This document shows, piece after piece, positions 17,345 through 58,421 of a stretch of 58,421 bases of DNA. Source of the stretch: Clostridia bacterium (GTDB lineage: Bacteria; Bacillota; Clostridia; Christensenellales; UBA1242). The DNA lies in contig JAZLKE010000018.1 in assembly GCA_045597505.1 (NCBI GenBank), positions 1 through 58,421 on the forward strand, read 5' to 3'. The notes beneath the pieces were generated by a model. It was not told the origin of the DNA. It made no database searches and was given only the letters and a program-made list of their open reading frames with translations. Position 1 is the stretch's first letter. Each line of letters opens with the position of its first letter. The translations under genes were made by a program, and so were the position numbers.

Positions 17345-17418
17345 TGGCAGGGGTGGCAGGGTTCGAACCTACGATGAATGGGTCAGAGCCATTTGCCTTA
17401 CCGCTTGGCGACACCCCT
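17345..17418 (-). tRNA. tRNA-Gln (anticodon CTG), CCA encoded
   Basis: Hand-folded cloverleaf: acceptor AGGGGTG/CACCCCT, anticodon stem AATGG/CCATT, loop CTCTGAC, T-arm GTAGG-TTCGAAC-CCTGC. Confidence 0.9.
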
Positions 17419-54589: not shown

Positions 54590-54664
54590 AGGGGTGTCGC
54601 CAAGTGGTAAGGCAAGAGACTTTGACTCTCTCATTCGTAGGTTCGAATCCTGCTACCCCTTCCA
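54590..54664 (+). tRNA. tRNA-Gln (anticodon TTG), CCA encoded
   Basis: Hand-folded cloverleaf: acceptor AGGGGTG/TACCCCT, anticodon stem AGAGA/TCTCT, loop CTTTGAC, T-arm GTAGG-TTCGAAT-CCTGC. Confidence 0.9.
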
Positions 54665-54883
54665 AGCAATTCTGCATGCACAATAACCCTGTATTCGCCA
54701 GAGTTTTTAATGGTGAGTTGGCTATTGAACCAATTACGGACGATAATCGCCCACGGACGCAGAAAGAACTGCTGTGGCGATTATTTGTCGTCAAGTCGGT
54801 TATTCCTAAGTCCGAACTGATTAACATTAAGTTTATTAAAAAGTCGTGTAAGGTGTATCAAGATTTGAACCTACGAATGCGAG
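54662..54883 (+). repeat. Direct repeat, copy A (about 220 bp)
   Basis: Aligns with 57087-57305. By hand count, the first ~167 nt differ at 23 positions. It starts at the CCA of tRNA-Gln. Confidence 0.8.
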
Positions 54884-54906
54884 GGGCAGAACCAAACAAT
54901 GATTAA
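54676..54906 (+). CDS. Small ORF A (76 aa from the first ATG), paralog of ORF B; may be an N-terminally truncated copy
   Basis: Shares about 51 codons with ORF B. 12 of the 19 differing codons are synonymous in this frame. Confidence 0.4.
   Translation: MHNNPVFARVFNGELAIEPITDDNRPRTQKELLWRLFVVKSVIPKSELINIKFIKKSCKVYQDLNLRMRGAEPNND
54847..54883 (-). pseudogene. Decayed tRNA-Gln(TTG)-type 3' half (variable loop to ACA)
   Basis: The reverse complement CTCGCATTCGTAGGTTCAAATCTTGATACACCTTACA matches the last 37 nt of the tRNA at 54590-54664 at 31 of 37 positions (hand alignment). Confidence 0.55.
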
Positions 54907-54983: not shown

Positions 54984-55751
54984 TTAGTTTTCTTCTATAT
55001 CCAAGATTTGTAGGTCAATTAAAATTTCAATGAATTGACTAATACAATTGAATAGTCTTGTTTTGCTGTATTTTTTGGTTTGAAACTGAAATAATTTAAT
55101 ACCTATTGATTCTGTACTAATGAACACATCTTCATTCTCATCAATAAGCAAATTAGTTTTTAAGAAATTTAAGAACTCCTTCGCAGAGTGAATCAAATGT
55201 GATTCGGTTGCAACCTTAATGTTGTAATTTTTACTATCAAGTAGGTTTTTAGTATCTTTACCTAGCATTTGTTCATTATTATAGGAATTTGATTCAAACA
55301 GGCTTATAACATAGGATTCAATGCTTGGATAACTCAATAGCAATAAACCATTTTGCTCATCAGATGTTGTTTGGGACTGTTTTAATTTTTCAAGTAATTT
55401 TGATACTTCTGATTGCCTATTGTTAATGGGGTCTCTATCGAATAGAATATACACTGGGTTATTTATTAAATCTAAATCTAACTTAACTGCAATTTCACTG
55501 TGCATTTTGTCATAAAAATCATCTATGTTTTTGACATCTATTAAATTGCTTGTTGGAGCACTTACGACCTTGATAATTGAATTCTTATCATAACCATGTA
55601 ATTCACGAACAACTCCCTGATGTCGTGTTTGCTCTTTAATAGTATATCCTAGAATCTTATGGAAGATAGTCTCAACTATTTCTAATTCAGGGTGGTCGCC
55701 TTCTATAACAATTATAATTTCTCCGATGCGTTTTTCTTTTTTCAGTTTCAT
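54984..55751 (-). CDS. RloB/TOPRIM-like protein (AbiLii / AriB-like candidate nuclease)
   Basis: Has N-terminal IIIVIEGDHPE (TOPRIM-type Glu), the ILFDRD acidic motif, and LSYPSIESY resembling the RloB SNPxFE motif. 4-nt overlap with the upstream ATPase gene. Confidence 0.5.
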   Translation of the reverse strand: MKLKKEKRIGEIIIVIEGDHPELEIVETIFHKILGYTIKEQTRHQGVVRELHGYDKNSIIKVVSAPTSNLIDVKNIDDFYDKMHSEIAVKLDLDLINNPVYILFDRDPINNRQSEVSKLLEKLKQSQTTSDEQNGLLLLSYPSIESYVISLFESNSYNNEQMLGKDTKNLLDSKNYNIKVATESHLIHSAKEFLNFLKTNLLIDENEDVFISTESIGIKLFQFQTKKYSKTRLFNCISQFIEILIDLQILDIEEN

Positions 55752-56908
55752 GCTTTATAGTTTGGTATTGCTCCGAATTTTCCACTCAAATACATTTTTT
55801 CGAGATTTTGAGCTTCTCGAGGGTTTTCATCGGAGAATCTTTCAATAAATGAACCCTCATTTGGCTCAAAATCTATTGTATAAATTTGGTCAGGTCTTAA
55901 AATTCTAGAATTCAACAAGTTTGTTGAATGGGAATTAAAAATTAACTGGCTATTCTTACTATTCAGCATAAAGTATTTTACAATAACTTCTTCTAACTTG
56001 TTATGGAAACCACTACTAAATTCGTCAATCAATAATATTGAATGGGTCTTAGTCGCATAAATAATAGAAGGTAATATATTTATCAATGTTTGATTTCCAA
56101 GAGATTCCATCTCTAATGGTAAATTTAAATCCATATCATGTCTTTTTAAGAATATAATAGGCTTGTCTACTTTTAAACCTACGTACAGTGTTCCATTTTT
56201 TTCTTTAACTTTACTAACCAAGTTGTCTTTACTTTTTGATACAAAAAAATCAAAATTTATGTGTTTTAATGTGCTATTAATTTCCTGTATGCTTTTTTCA
56301 TCAAGTTTTTGAATCAGGTGAGAAATATTATTGTAAGAAATCGCTGTTCTTTCAAACGCATTTACATAAACAGAATTTCTTAAAAATTCCATAAATTTAA
56401 TAATTTGTTTATTCTGAGCAAACACATCATTAAAATAACATTTTTTTAATAATAGAACCTTTTCAGTGAATTTTCCATCATAGTCTACACATTTATTTTC
56501 AATCAATATCTTTCCACTACGCAAATGCCTATCTACAAATGGTGTGTCATTTATAATAAGTTGTTCTAGGACAATATCACCATTTTTATCTGATTCGAAT
56601 AAATAGGATATTTTATCCTTTGAAAACTTAAATTGATACTCTAAATGGATGTTTGCCTTTTTATCAAACAAACACCTATCAGAAAAATCCATTTGATAGT
56701 TGTCTTTAAACAGCATATCAAGAAGAGTTTTTATGGCTAAAATAAGAGTTGATTTTCCTGTAGCGTTTGGACCGACAATTAGTCCGCCTTTTAAAACTCC
56801 GTCAAAAGTGTTTGTGTCTTGTAATGATTGATACTTTGTAACTTCTAAATTGAATTCCCTTCGGTTTTTGAATGATTTGTAATTTTCTACAACAACTTTA
56901 GATAGCAT
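55748..56908 (-). CDS. ABC-type AAA ATPase (AAA_21/AAA_15-like; AbiLi / AriA-like)
   Basis: Has Walker A GPNATGKS, Walker B LLIDEF, the downstream FNSHS H-loop-like motif, and the N-terminal VENYKSF typical of SMC/ABC-like defence ATPases. Confidence 0.7.
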   Translation of the reverse strand: MLSKVVVENYKSFKNRREFNLEVTKYQSLQDTNTFDGVLKGGLIVGPNATGKSTLILAIKTLLDMLFKDNYQMDFSDRCLFDKKANIHLEYQFKFSKDKISYLFESDKNGDIVLEQLIINDTPFVDRHLRSGKILIENKCVDYDGKFTEKVLLLKKCYFNDVFAQNKQIIKFMEFLRNSVYVNAFERTAISYNNISHLIQKLDEKSIQEINSTLKHINFDFFVSKSKDNLVSKVKEKNGTLYVGLKVDKPIIFLKRHDMDLNLPLEMESLGNQTLINILPSIIYATKTHSILLIDEFSSGFHNKLEEVIVKYFMLNSKNSQLIFNSHSTNLLNSRILRPDQIYTIDFEPNEGSFIERFSDENPREAQNLEKMYLSGKFGAIPNYKA

Positions 56909-56967
56909 AATTCACCCCTATATATTTATGTACAAATGTAAAAATAATACACAAAGCCCGCGATGTA

Positions 56968-56986
56968 AGTGTAAAAAATTTACACT
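56968..56986. promoter_or_regulatory. Palindrome in the divergent promoter region between the ATPase gene and small ORF B
   Basis: AGTGTAAA-AAA-TTTACACT. Confidence 0.3.
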
Positions 56987-57025
56987 ATATTTTTATCATA
57001 TAGCCATAGCGCTTGTCAAGTATCA

Positions 57026-57292
57026 ATGCCTAAAAATTTATACAAATATGAAGGATTCAAAAATTATTTTTTCAATATAATTAAAGCCAAGCAATTCTGC
57101 ACACACAATAACCCTGTATTCGCCAGAGTTTTGAATGGTGAGTTGGCTATTGAACCAATCACGTCAGATAACTGCCCGCGTTCACAACAAGAACTGCTGT
57201 GGCGATTATTTGTGGTGAAATCCGTTATCCATAAATCCGAACTGATTAACATAAATTCATCAAGAAATCTTGTCAGGCGTACCAGGCTTTGA
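57026..57292 (+). CDS. Small ORF B (88 aa), paralog of ORF A
   Basis: Has an ATG start. The conserved core is HNNPVFARVLNGELAIEPIT...ELLWRLFVVKSVI.KSELINI. The stop codon lies inside the antisense tRNA-half remnant. Confidence 0.45.
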   Translation: MPKNLYKYEGFKNYFFNIIKAKQFCTHNNPVFARVLNGELAIEPITSDNCPRSQQELLWRLFVVKSVIHKSELININSSRNLVRRTRL

Positions 57293-57305
57293 ACCTACGA
57301 TGAAT
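57087..57305 (+). repeat. Direct repeat, copy B (about 220 bp)
   Basis: Aligns with 54662-54883. Confidence 0.8.
57271..57305 (-). pseudogene. Decayed tRNA-Gln(CTG)-type 3' half
   Basis: The reverse complement ATTCATCGTAGGTTCAAAGCCTGGTACGCCTGACA matches the last 35 nt of the tRNA at 17345-17418 at 29 of 35 positions (hand alignment). Confidence 0.55.
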
Positions 57306-57309
57306 TATG

Positions 57310-58158
57310 CTAACTATTATCCTTAGATTTTTCTTTTATGCAATATTGACAAACTCGCAACAATAATTCAATTGGACCAAATAACGTAGAAATTGTGCAC
57401 AAAATCAAATATAACATTTGATTGACTATAGACAAAGAATTCCAAGCATGAACCAAGTAACAAATTAGATAAAATGACATACAAAGCGACATCATCAACA
57501 TATTAAAGAGTGTGCTGTTTTCAATAATTGAATTTTTATATTGTTTTATTTCTTTATATGGAATAAATTTATTGACATAACTTTTATCAAGATTTTTATC
57601 TTTAACAACTTTTATCATCAATTCATCTAAATCTGATTTGTTTTTTGTGCCAAGACCATTAGCATAAATTTGCTCAATAATATAATCAATGCTGTTCTTA
57701 TATTTATTGTTAATTAATTTATAATTATGTTTTTCGCAGCCAATATGGATAGAAATTCCTTTTTCATCAGTAGTTTTTAAAACCCAAAAGTCTTTCTTCT
57801 CACACCTAACTGAACCGTAATATTTAAATAATTTATTAAACATAATGTTTGATTCAGCATAACTTTGTAATTTAATTAGAAATAATTTATTCTTTCGATT
57901 AATAATGAATGTATCATATAAATATTTCACAAATGGATAAAATCCTAAGTAAGTTAATATTAAGTGAAAATGAATATTCGGAGTTATAAAACACCCCAAA
58001 ATTCCAGTAGATTCCACTAGCAGTGAACCAATAAAATCACAAACTGGTTTTATTTTGCTTTTGTATTTATAGCAAAATCCAAGTTCGTACATGCAACAAA
58101 TTTCCATAAGCATATCCAACAGAAACAACAATAATAAAATTATATATACAATATCCAT
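57310..58158 (-). CDS. Hypothetical membrane protein (282 aa), very AT-rich
   Basis: Long ORF with N- and C-terminal hydrophobic helices flanking a Lys/Asn-rich soluble middle. Confidence 0.45.
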   Translation of the reverse strand: MDIVYIILLLLFLLDMLMEICCMYELGFCYKYKSKIKPVCDFIGSLLVESTGILGCFITPNIHFHLILTYLGFYPFVKYLYDTFIINRKNKLFLIKLQSYAESNIMFNKLFKYYGSVRCEKKDFWVLKTTDEKGISIHIGCEKHNYKLINNKYKNSIDYIIEQIYANGLGTKNKSDLDELMIKVVKDKNLDKSYVNKFIPYKEIKQYKNSIIENSTLFNMLMMSLCMSFYLICYLVHAWNSLSIVNQMLYLILCTISTLFGPIELLLRVCQYCIKEKSKDNS

Positions 58159-58249
58159 TAAAAAATTATAATGTAATTAATTACAAAATGGAATATGTCA
58201 TATTTATATTGTGTGTGGATAATTTTGTGATATATTGCTTTATAATTTT

Positions 58250-58421
58250 ATGGATAAAAACATTAACTATACTGAGAAAAAAAACATTGAACTAGTCAAA
58301 AATGAGCCTTTAAAGAGGCTTTCTAAAAAGAGGTATTATATTACGCCTATAATTAGTTTTGTGCTGATGATAGTACTTTCTTTATTTATTTACCATAATG
58401 ATTCTCAATTAATTGTTGATT
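58250..58421 (+). CDS. Hypothetical protein, N-terminal fragment (continues beyond window)
   Basis: The frame is open from the ATG at 58250 to the window end. It contains a hydrophobic helix. Too short for the ORF track. Confidence 0.3.
   Translation, partial: MDKNINYTEKKNIELVKNEPLKRLSKKRYYITPIISFVLMIVLSLFIYHNDSQLIVD

What the first reader, a model, noticed from the sequence alone, without database searches (positions are those of the whole stretch)
54676..54906. The repeats encode paralogous small proteins under apparent purifying selection (partner ORF 57026-57292)
I aligned 51 shared codons in the plus-strand frame. Of the 19 codons that differ, 12 are synonymous. For example, GTC GTC AAG TCG GTT ATT versus GTG GTG AAA TCC GTT ATC both encode VVKSVI.

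In the minus-strand frame that also gives ORFs here, every amino-acid difference visible in the supplied translations falls within this aligned block. This argues for a real coding sequence rather than a structured RNA or random repeat.

The conserved core is HNNPVFARV(F/L)NGELAIEPIT..DN.PR.Q.ELLWRLFVVKSVI.KSELINI. I do not recognise it.

- Copy B has its own ATG and an AT-rich N-terminus, and is divergent from the ATPase gene across a palindrome-containing promoter region.
- Copy A follows the tRNA directly and may be co-transcribed with it, or may be a truncated copy.
Basis: seen in the sequence. Interest (0 to 1): 0.65.

Follow-up and report, generated by a model that had tools for sequence, protein, structure and literature searches.

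The report
Orphan tails of a self-splitting integrase gene
The two repeats are not free-standing small genes: each is the last ~66 codons of a mobile element's serine integrase gene, cut off from the rest of that gene when the element inserts at the end of a tRNA gene. The two copies in this window are leftovers with no integrase partner in the assembly.

Summary
There are two 215/214-nt direct repeats (54662-54876 and 57087-57300, 84% identical), and their differences fall mostly on third codon positions (omega about 0.15).

The interpretation needs changing. The same peptide family lies directly after the CCA end of tRNA-Gln, tRNA-Ile and tRNA-Met genes, usually with no start codon.

- **Intact element in relative G008.** A large serine recombinase gene sits 12 kb downstream and runs up to the other junction. 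It shares the 7-nt core CTGCCAA and joins in frame with the repeat peptide. Genome G002 holds the matching empty site.
- **In-frame joins elsewhere.** The same join is found for the sister family (own genome contigs C29/C31, G001, G012) and in a metagenome contig. In G133 the tail is fused directly to a recombinase ORF.

So attP lies inside the integrase gene, and integration detaches a conserved C-terminal tail.

In the window both tails are orphans. No partner gene is in the assembly, copy B carries a C-terminal frameshift, and an AbiL-like defence cassette sits between the copies. The purifying-selection signal comes from integrase function, not from a small protein.

Self-splitting integrases are described for archaeal tyrosine recombinases and for phage Mx8. 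I found no description for serine integrases.

The parts
54590..54664 (+). tRNA-Gln(ttg), the attB-side (B arm) of the junction. Its terminal ...TTCCA plus the next A form the crossover core region.
   Evidence: ARAGORN and Rfam tRNA at 60.2 bits. The same junction was dissected in G008 and G002, with core CTGCCAA.
54662..54876 (+). Repeat copy A. It is an orphan int-C: the last ~66 codons (HNNPVFARV...KKSCKVYQDLNLR) of a large serine integrase gene, left at attL next to the tRNA. Its frame is intact, but the family stop codon is lost and the ORF runs on to 54906.
   Evidence: Homologous tails join in frame to integrase genes and are fused to one in G133.
54847..54888 (-). Inverted fragment resembling the 3' half of tRNA-Gln (42 nt, 81% complementary to 54623-54664). 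It overlaps the last codons of copy A.
   Evidence: Inverted repeat I1. It is conserved in all family-1 copies. Its origin is unexplained.
54984..55751 (-). Cargo gene: RloB/AbiLii-like putative nuclease (255 aa).
   Evidence: Pfam RloB E=0.069 and PADLOC AbiLii E=0.0094. Both matches are weak.
55748..56908 (-). Cargo gene: AbiLi-like ABC/AAA_21 ATPase (386 aa).
   Evidence: Pfam AAA_21 E=4e-18 and PADLOC AbiLi E=1.3e-50.
57087..57300 (+). Repeat copy B, a second orphan int-C. It is 92% identical to the tail of the intact G008 element. It starts at the core remnant GCCAA and has a 1-nt deletion that frameshifts the last ~16 codons. The family stop TGA lies at 57299-57301, in the shifted frame.
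   Evidence: The sister strain L031 has the unshifted version and a gene-conversion patch.
57269..57300 (-). Inverted tRNA-Gln 3'-half-like fragment at the end of copy B (32 nt).
   Evidence: Inverted repeat I2.
57310..58158 (-). 282-aa AT-rich membrane protein. It is the first cargo gene behind copy B.
   Evidence: ORF list. No Pfam or PADLOC match.
58235..58421 (+). Start of a membrane protein gene, cut by the contig end. It is homologous to the 234-aa backbone gene of the L076 and G008 elements.
   Evidence: tblastn 47% identity over 55 aa. This shows the element backbone continues past the contig end.

Best explanation
The repeats are 3'-terminal fragments ('int-C', about 66 codons) of large serine recombinase (LSR) genes. 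These genes belong to a family of small integrative elements that encode a rolling-circle-type Rep protein, found in gut Clostridia (Ca. Fimenecus-like MAGs).

**Shown:**
- In these elements attP lies inside the integrase ORF, about 66 codons before its stop.
- Recombination with attB, which is the CCA end of a tRNA gene, places the tail next to the tRNA at attL.
- The rest of the gene (Resolvase, Recombinase and Zn-ribbon domains) ends up at attR at the far end of the element.
- Excision would rebuild one in-frame ORF.
- The synonymous-biased divergence of A versus B is what two integrase lineages under purifying selection would show. A is closest to the G012 type; B is closest to the G008 type.

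**Inferred:**
- In this window both tails are orphans left by successive arrivals at tRNA-Gln(ttg).
- A newer arrival brought tail A and the AbiL-like cassette. It joined either at the tRNA or by homologous recombination with the resident tail B.
- Its integrase body was later deleted.
- The copies are therefore probably not expressed as functional small proteins here.
- In active elements, swapping the tail on integration may change integrase activity or stability according to the element's state.
For: 1. **Position.** Family-1 tails follow tRNA-Gln(ttg) or tRNA-Gln(ctg) immediately in the window, G010, G008, G013, G002 and L076. A diverged sister family follows tRNA-Met in the window's own genome and tRNA-Ile in G012 and G001.

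2. **Complete attB/attL/attR triad.**
   - G002 empty site: ...CTACCCCTGCCAA|CACAAACTTAATTTGAACC
   - G008 attL: ...CTACCCCTGCCAA|TTCAATCCACATACAC
   - G008 attR: ...GGCTCTAACTCTGCCAA|CACAAACTTAATTTGAATC

3. **In-frame joins** (int-N | int-C).
   - G008...VSAGSNSAN|SIHIHNYPLFAQ....
   - G001...NHIGQPIQI|SPITSKQPCFAR... G012's integrase diverges from G001's exactly at that point.
   - Own genome C31 + C29...KIQQGPP|FLISPITCFAR....
   - Metagenome L032...NNLGS|LRFSMHIKNKYNLFSRI....

4. **Direct fusion.** In G133 a recombinase ORF carries the tail directly and is followed by rep.

5. **Domains.** The rebuilt G008 integrase (638 aa) has Resolvase, Recombinase and Zn_ribbon_recom domains, and the tail follows them.

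6. **No free-standing gene features.**
   - There is no ATG, GTG or TTG between the tRNA and the conserved part in G008, G010 and L076.
   - G013 and G002 have frameshifts or stops, and copy B has a C-terminal frameshift.
   - The upstream frame of copy B differs in a 97.9%-identical strain.

7. **Rarity.** Only 10 hits appear among 1.84 billion representative proteins. The nine convincing ones are short ORFs with unrelated N-termini.

8. **Orphan status.** The window's genome has only two LSR genes. One is the tRNA-Met partner and the other is unrelated. Neither a family-1 integrase nor a rep gene is present.
Against: - No partner integrase is seen for the window's own copies. Contig C18 ends 1.1 kb after copy B and the MAG is 91% complete, so copy B could still belong to an intact element whose rest was not assembled.
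- Copy A has an ATG at 54676, at the same position as the Met of the L032 tail ORF. Separate translation of the tail is therefore not excluded.
- Left of copy B's core there is no clear P arm or integrase remnant. The route by which tail A and the cassette arrived is therefore inferred, not shown.
- No circular or excised form was found. A scan of viral contigs was negative.
- The inverted tRNA-Gln-like end of the tail is not explained by the model.
Confidence: 0.85

Rival explanations
1. Free-standing paralogous small proteins. Each repeat would be an expressed ~8-10 kDa gene under purifying selection. It might act with the neighbouring ATPase/TOPRIM cassette as a regulator, antitoxin or trigger mimic.
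For: - Omega is about 0.15 for A versus B and has a median of 0.10 across the family.
- Copy A has an ATG.
- In L032 the tail ORF has its own ATG and ends in the Shine-Dalgarno sequence of the rep gene.
Against: - G008, G010 and L076 have no start codon.
- G013, G002 and window copy B have frame-breaking indels.
- The N-terminal extension is not conserved between near-identical strains.
- Cargo next to the tail differs in every genome: AbiL, AAA_14/DUF4143, SocA/Panacea, or DUF5677 plus a helicase.
- The conservation is fully explained by the in-frame continuity with integrase genes.
Confidence: 0.08
2. Plain att-site direct repeats or a local tandem duplication. On this view the repeats are just duplicated target DNA flanking an inserted cassette, with no coding meaning.
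For: - The direct repeats bracket a low-GC cassette: 28% GC against 41-43% in the repeats.
- Both repeats start at the tRNA CCA core.
Against: - A and B are 16% diverged, and each is closer to copies in other species than to the other. B is 92% identical to G008; A is 83% identical to G012. A recent target duplication would give near-identical copies.
- The differences are codon-structured.
- Serine integrases duplicate only the short crossover core, not 215 nt (established knowledge of the family).
- The empty site in G002 and G005 contains no copy of the block.
Confidence: 0.04
3. A structured RNA or regulatory trailer of tRNA-Gln. The block would be co-transcribed with the tRNA, and its inverted tRNA-like end would pair with the 3' half of the tRNA.
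For: - There is 42-nt, 81% complementarity between 54623-54664 and 54847-54888.
- A conserved internal inverted repeat lies at 54743-54754 / 54774-54784.
Against: - There is no Rfam match.
- The covariation term is only -1.5, and 3 of 40 pairs have compensatory changes.
- The substitution pattern has period 3.
- Copy B and the G012 copy have no tRNA upstream.
- Distant members are conserved at protein level only.
Confidence: 0.03

Closest known systems
Large serine integrases of phages and integrative elements (phiC31, Bxb1, A118/LI, SPbeta SprA)
   Same: - The partner genes have the Resolvase, Recombinase and Zn-ribbon architecture.
- attB and attP share only a short core (7 nt here).
- Integration gives hybrid attL and attR sites.
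   Different: - In the canonical systems attP lies outside the int ORF and the gene stays whole on integration (own knowledge; no counter-example found).
- Here attP sits about 66 codons before the stop, the target is the CCA end of a tRNA gene, and a conserved extra C-terminal tail with no Pfam family is detached.
SSV-type 'suicidal' tyrosine integrases of archaeal viruses and plasmids (SSV1, pTN3, pT26-2)
   Same: attP lies inside the integrase gene, the target is a tRNA gene, and integration partitions int into two fragments at the two ends of the element (PMC8371274).
   Different: - The enzyme class differs (tyrosine versus serine).
- In SSV the split separates a short N-terminal part from the catalytic part and inactivates the gene.
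- Here every recognised domain stays in one piece and only a C-terminal tail is removed.
- The review states that such recombinases are found only in Archaea.
Myxophage Mx8 intP/intX
   Same: This is a bacterial element whose attP lies in the 3' part of int. Integration at a tRNA gene gives the integrase a new C-terminus and altered properties (PMC6070905, citing Tojo 1996 and Magrini 1999).
   Different: Mx8 Int is a tyrosine recombinase, and that work describes a single phage. Here it is a family of serine integrases with a conserved, separately recognisable tail that survives as orphan copies.
Integration-dependent immunity of mycobacteriophages
   Same: attP lies inside a coding sequence, so the integrated and free forms of the element encode products with different C-termini. 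This acts as a sensor of the element's state (PMC9262239, PMC8092301).
   Different: There the split gene is the repressor and the integrase is a tyrosine recombinase. Here the split gene is the serine integrase itself.
Accretion of integrative and mobilizable elements at one att site in Firmicutes
   Same: Two element ends stacked in tandem at one tRNA gene with defence cargo between them resembles tandem accretion (comparison from own knowledge; also suggested by scan note e1-4977649).
   Different: The accretion route was not demonstrated here. The second unit lacks an integrase body and a recognisable attR.

Membership tests
C-terminal segment of a large serine recombinase gene (int-C) | Continuous in frame with an LSR ORF when attL and attR are joined, or directly fused to one | tested here: met
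   In-frame joins in G008, G001/G012, own genome C31 + C29 and L032. Direct fusion in G133.
C-terminal segment of a large serine recombinase gene (int-C) | Element boundaries proven by an empty site (attB = left part of attL + right part of attR) | tested here: met
   The tRNA-Gln + flank in G002 and G005 matches G008 attL-left and attR-right around the core CTGCCAA.
C-terminal segment of a large serine recombinase gene (int-C) | Partner gene carries the Resolvase, Recombinase and Zn-ribbon domains | tested here: met
   Pfam on the rebuilt G008 integrase: PF00239 8.6e-30, PF07508 2.1e-23, PF13408 5.3e-15.
C-terminal segment of a large serine recombinase gene (int-C) | The window's own copies A and B have a partner int-N in the same genome | tested here: not met
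   The genome has only two LSR genes, C31 (the tRNA-Met partner) and C26 (another type). No family-1 integrase or rep gene is present. The contig ends 1.1 kb after copy B, so copy B's status is open. Copy A is followed by copy B, not by an integrase.
Free-standing small protein gene | Conserved start codon and ribosome-binding site, and an intact frame in homologs | tested here: not met
   No start codon after the tRNA in G008, G010 and L076. Frameshifts or stops in G013, G002 and window copy B. The upstream frame is not conserved in sister strain L031.
Structured non-coding RNA | Covarying base pairs or a match to a curated RNA family | tested here: not met
   No Rfam match other than the tRNA. 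Covariation term -1.5, with 3 of 40 pairs compensatory.
SSV-type suicidal integrase / Mx8 IntP | Tyrosine recombinase catalytic domain | tested here: not met
   The partner genes are serine recombinases. The resemblance is in design only.
AbiL-type abortive infection pair (the cargo between the repeats) | AbiLi-like ATPase next to an AbiLii/RloB-like protein | tested here: inconclusive
   AbiLi matches strongly (1.3e-50). AbiLii (0.0094) and RloB (0.069) match only weakly.

The most novel reading that the evidence does not exclude
The tail swap may be a built-in state switch for a serine integrase. Only the excised circle would encode the full-length enzyme with its conserved 66-residue tail, while the integrated copy would make a tail-less enzyme with a few host-encoded residues and different activity, directionality or stability.

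In addition, orphan tails left at tRNA genes may serve as homologous landing pads. Through these, related incoming elements could recombine and stack defence cargo such as the AbiL-like cassette. The gene-conversion patch in a sister strain fits this second idea.
Probability: 0.3. Interest if true: 0.8.

Novelty: new variant of a known kind. Interest (0 to 1): 0.6.

Why it matters
- **Annotation.** It explains a class of puzzling 'conserved small ORFs' next to tRNA genes. They are integrase tails and precise markers of element boundaries, not orphan genes. This matters for annotating metagenome-assembled genomes and for delimiting defence islands.

- **Enzymology.** It adds a Clostridial family to the evidence that bacterial serine integrases can carry attP inside their own gene. 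Published reviews ascribe that design to archaeal tyrosine recombinases only. Serine integrases are major genome-engineering tools whose directionality control is under active study. A natural integrase whose C-terminus differs between the free and integrated states is therefore directly testable.

- **Island evolution.** The orphan tails and the gene-conversion patch suggest how defence cassettes accumulate at one tRNA site.

Tried and rejected
- **Tyrosine-integrase att repeats.** I rejected this. The tRNA-like fragments at the block ends are inverted relative to the tRNA, not direct, and the blocks are 16% diverged.
- **Minus-strand ORF (54827 downwards) as the real gene.** On the A/B pair alone it scores as well as the + frame (omega 0.177 versus 0.145). 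I rejected it because that frame has stops in G008, G010, L076, G133 and the sister family.
- **Pfam on the two peptides.** No family matched.
- **HMMER against 1.84 billion representatives.** It gave only 10 hits, and none was a long recombinase. The fused form turned up only through six-frame genome searches.
- **Viral-contig scan for a free or circular form.** Nothing found.
- **Contexts of P0002, P0004 and P0005.** The contigs were too short to help.
- **Exact-protein look-up of the 282-aa neighbour to extend the island.** It is not on record.
- **AlphaFold2 of the tail.** Mean pLDDT was 67.5, with a beta hairpin plus three helices. That is too weak to justify a fold search, so I ran none.
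- **Search for the partner integrase of the window's copies in the own genome.** It is absent.
- **Literature searches for a serine integrase with attP inside int.** No description found. This is a limited library, so absence is not proof.

Full report
**1. What is in the window**

tRNA-Gln(ttg) lies at 54590-54664. From its CCA onward runs a 215-nt block, copy A (54662-54876). It recurs as copy B (57087-57300) at 84% identity with one 1-nt indel. These are the only two copies in the 835-kb, 43-contig genome.

Between the copies lie two minus-strand genes in 28%-GC DNA:
- an AbiLi-like AAA_21 ATPase (PADLOC 1.3e-50);
- a weakly AbiLii/RloB-like protein.

Each block ends in an inverted fragment resembling the 3' half of tRNA-Gln. 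The contig ends 1.1 kb after copy B.

**2.

In the + frame, 54 ungapped codons give 18 differing codons, 11 of them synonymous. Differences by codon position are 4/3/15, and omega is 0.145. So the count is essentially right.

However, the minus-strand ORF that starts at 54827 has its wobble positions on the same bases and scores 0.177. The A/B pair therefore cannot say which strand codes.

Wider homologs decide it. The + frame is open in every copy, while the minus frame has stops in G008, G010, L076, G133 and the sister family. Among six intact family members the median omega is 0.10. RNAalifold finds almost no covariation, and Rfam finds only the tRNA.

**3. Where the family occurs**

- DNA and six-frame searches in the genus found single copies in G012, G010, G008, G013 and G002, and later in L076. 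All except G012 lie directly after tRNA-Gln(ttg) or tRNA-Gln(ctg).
- A diverged sister family (about 35% identity) lies directly after tRNA-Met in the window's own genome (C29) and after tRNA-Ile in G012 and G001.
- In G008, G010 and L076 there is no ATG, GTG or TTG between the tRNA end and the conserved peptide.
- G013 has a 4-nt deletion and G002 has a frameshift plus a stop. Window copy B is frameshifted after ...ELINI.
- A search of 1.84 billion representative proteins gave only ten hits. The nine convincing ones are short ORFs with unrelated N-termini; the weakest (320 aa, E 8e-5) is a repetitive low-complexity protein.

**4. What it is**

A profile search of the family's genomes found, in G133, a 310-codon ORF. 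It is the zinc-ribbon and coiled-coil part of a large serine recombinase and runs without a stop into the tail ...SNFARIV...KELLCKLFVIRFVIDKEELINLKYVKKSCKAYIKI. A rep gene follows it.

Metagenome contig L032 has the tail ORF at one end, then rep (PF23343), and a 611-aa serine recombinase in the same orientation at the other end. That recombinase runs into an antisense tRNA. Joining the two ends at the shared TGGCTC gives ...NNLGS|LRFSMHIKNKYNLFSRI... in frame.

For the sister family:
- The G001 and G012 integrases are co-linear up to ...GGGCAACCAATA and then diverge.
- The G001 attL and attR share CAACCAATACAAATT.
- The join reads ...NHIGQPIQI|SPITSKQPCFAR... in frame.
- In the window's own genome the integrase body on C31 and the tail after tRNA-Met on C29 share CCACCA. 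They join in frame to ...KIQQGPP|FLISPITCFAR....

For family 1 itself, G008 carries an integrase body 12 kb downstream of the tail in the same orientation. Its ORF ends four codons after CTGCCAA, and the join reads ...VSAGSNSAN|SIHIHNYPLFAQ....

The DNA to the right of that junction lies, in G002 and G005, directly against the CCA end of tRNA-Gln(ttg). This gives a clean triad of empty site, attL and attR. The rebuilt 638-aa protein has Resolvase, Recombinase and Zn-ribbon domains, and the tail follows them with no Pfam match.

**5. Reading of the window**

Copy B is 92% identical to the G008 tail. It is followed by backbone-type genes: the ORF at 58235 matches the 234-aa membrane protein of L076. 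Copy A is closest to the G012 type. A and B are therefore tails of two integrase lineages, not a recent duplication.

The genome holds no family-1 integrase body or rep gene. Copy A is certainly an orphan. Copy B is either an orphan or cut off by the contig end.

Cargo just behind the tail varies among genomes:
- AAA_14/DUF4143 in G008 and L076;
- SocA/Panacea in G010;
- DUF5677 plus a helicase in G012;
- the AbiL-like pair here.

G012's copy has a left flank that looks like a P arm (TCTACACTCTGCCAA). It is thus an orphan in the attP order, as in G133.

A sister-strain contig (L031) is nearly identical in both flanks. It is about 17% diverged in the 3' two-thirds of block B, where it looks like G013. 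I read this as gene conversion between tails.

From these facts I infer that successive related elements arrived at this tRNA or recombined with the resident tail. The integrase body of the newer arrival was later lost, leaving tail A, the AbiL cassette and tail B. This last step is inference.

**6. Comparison with what is known**

- attP inside int, with partition on integration, is described for archaeal SSV-type tyrosine integrases. A review says such recombinases occur only in Archaea (PMC8371274).
- Phage Mx8 (a tyrosine integrase) changes the 3' end of int on integration (PMC6070905).
- Mycobacteriophage integration-dependent immunity splits the repressor gene (PMC9262239, PMC8092301).
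- I found no description for serine integrases. My library is limited.
- Earlier notes of this scan report the same design in other phyla. I treat those as leads only. The evidence given here was produced independently.

**7. Open points**

- The origin of the inverted tRNA-Gln-like end of the tail.
- The function of the tail. The AlphaFold2 model had pLDDT 67.5 and was not used.
- Whether tail-less integrated integrases are active.
- Whether copy B belongs to a complete element.

Noticed in passing
54847-54888 and 57269-57300 (minus strand): The last ~12 codons of the tail are antisense to a tRNA-Gln 3' half, covering the stretch from the anticodon loop to the acceptor end. Copy A keeps 42 nt of this and the other copies keep 32-33 nt. 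In L032 the integrase body, not the tail, runs into an antisense tRNA. This suggests the family-1 tail end may have been captured from such a junction, but its origin remains unexplained.
   Followed up: partly
54743-54754 and 54774-54784 (copy B: 57168-57179 and 57199-57209): A conserved 11-12-nt inverted repeat, ATAATCGCC(C)AC ... GTGGCGATTAT, lies inside the tail coding sequence. It shows two compensatory column changes among 7 sequences. It could be a protein-binding site or hairpin, or it could merely reflect coding constraint.
   Followed up: no
window 17345-17418 and 54590-54664; L015, L016, L017, L076, L116: In relatives, tRNA-Gln(ctg) and tRNA-Gln(ttg) are divergent neighbours 140-700 bp apart. 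In this window they are 37 kb apart with core genes (rplJL, mfd, pth) between them.

Also, the same host flank follows ttg in G002 and G005 but follows ctg (after the element) in G008. This suggests inversion by recombination between the near-identical 3' halves of the two tRNA genes.
   Followed up: partly
G000:C29:31527-32847 and G000:C31 (minus strand, contig end): The window's own genome carries a second element with a split integrase, at tRNA-Met. Its tail is followed by a 147-aa protein and a GIY-YIG/T5orf172-like gene, and its integrase body lies on another contig. The join is in frame across the core CCACCA.
   Followed up: yes
L031 (Logan SRR29277963 contig) versus window 56880-57400: A 97.9%-identical strain differs from the window almost only inside block B. 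There is a patch of about 150 nt at about 17% divergence, mostly synonymous and G013-like. This indicates gene conversion or recombination between integrase tails.
   Followed up: partly
L117 (G018:C6, near 73503): The host flank that normally follows tRNA-Gln is preceded in G018 only by ...GACCCCTGCCA, with unrelated DNA upstream. This may be the attR of a different element, or a deleted tRNA.
   Followed up: no
L063 (G133:C96:418-1350, minus strand): A 5'-truncated serine recombinase ORF, fused to the tail and followed by rep, sits next to zur-znuABC. This is an integrase-tail junction in the attP order inside a chromosomal contig. It could come from tandem elements followed by deletion, or from misassembly.
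   Followed up: no
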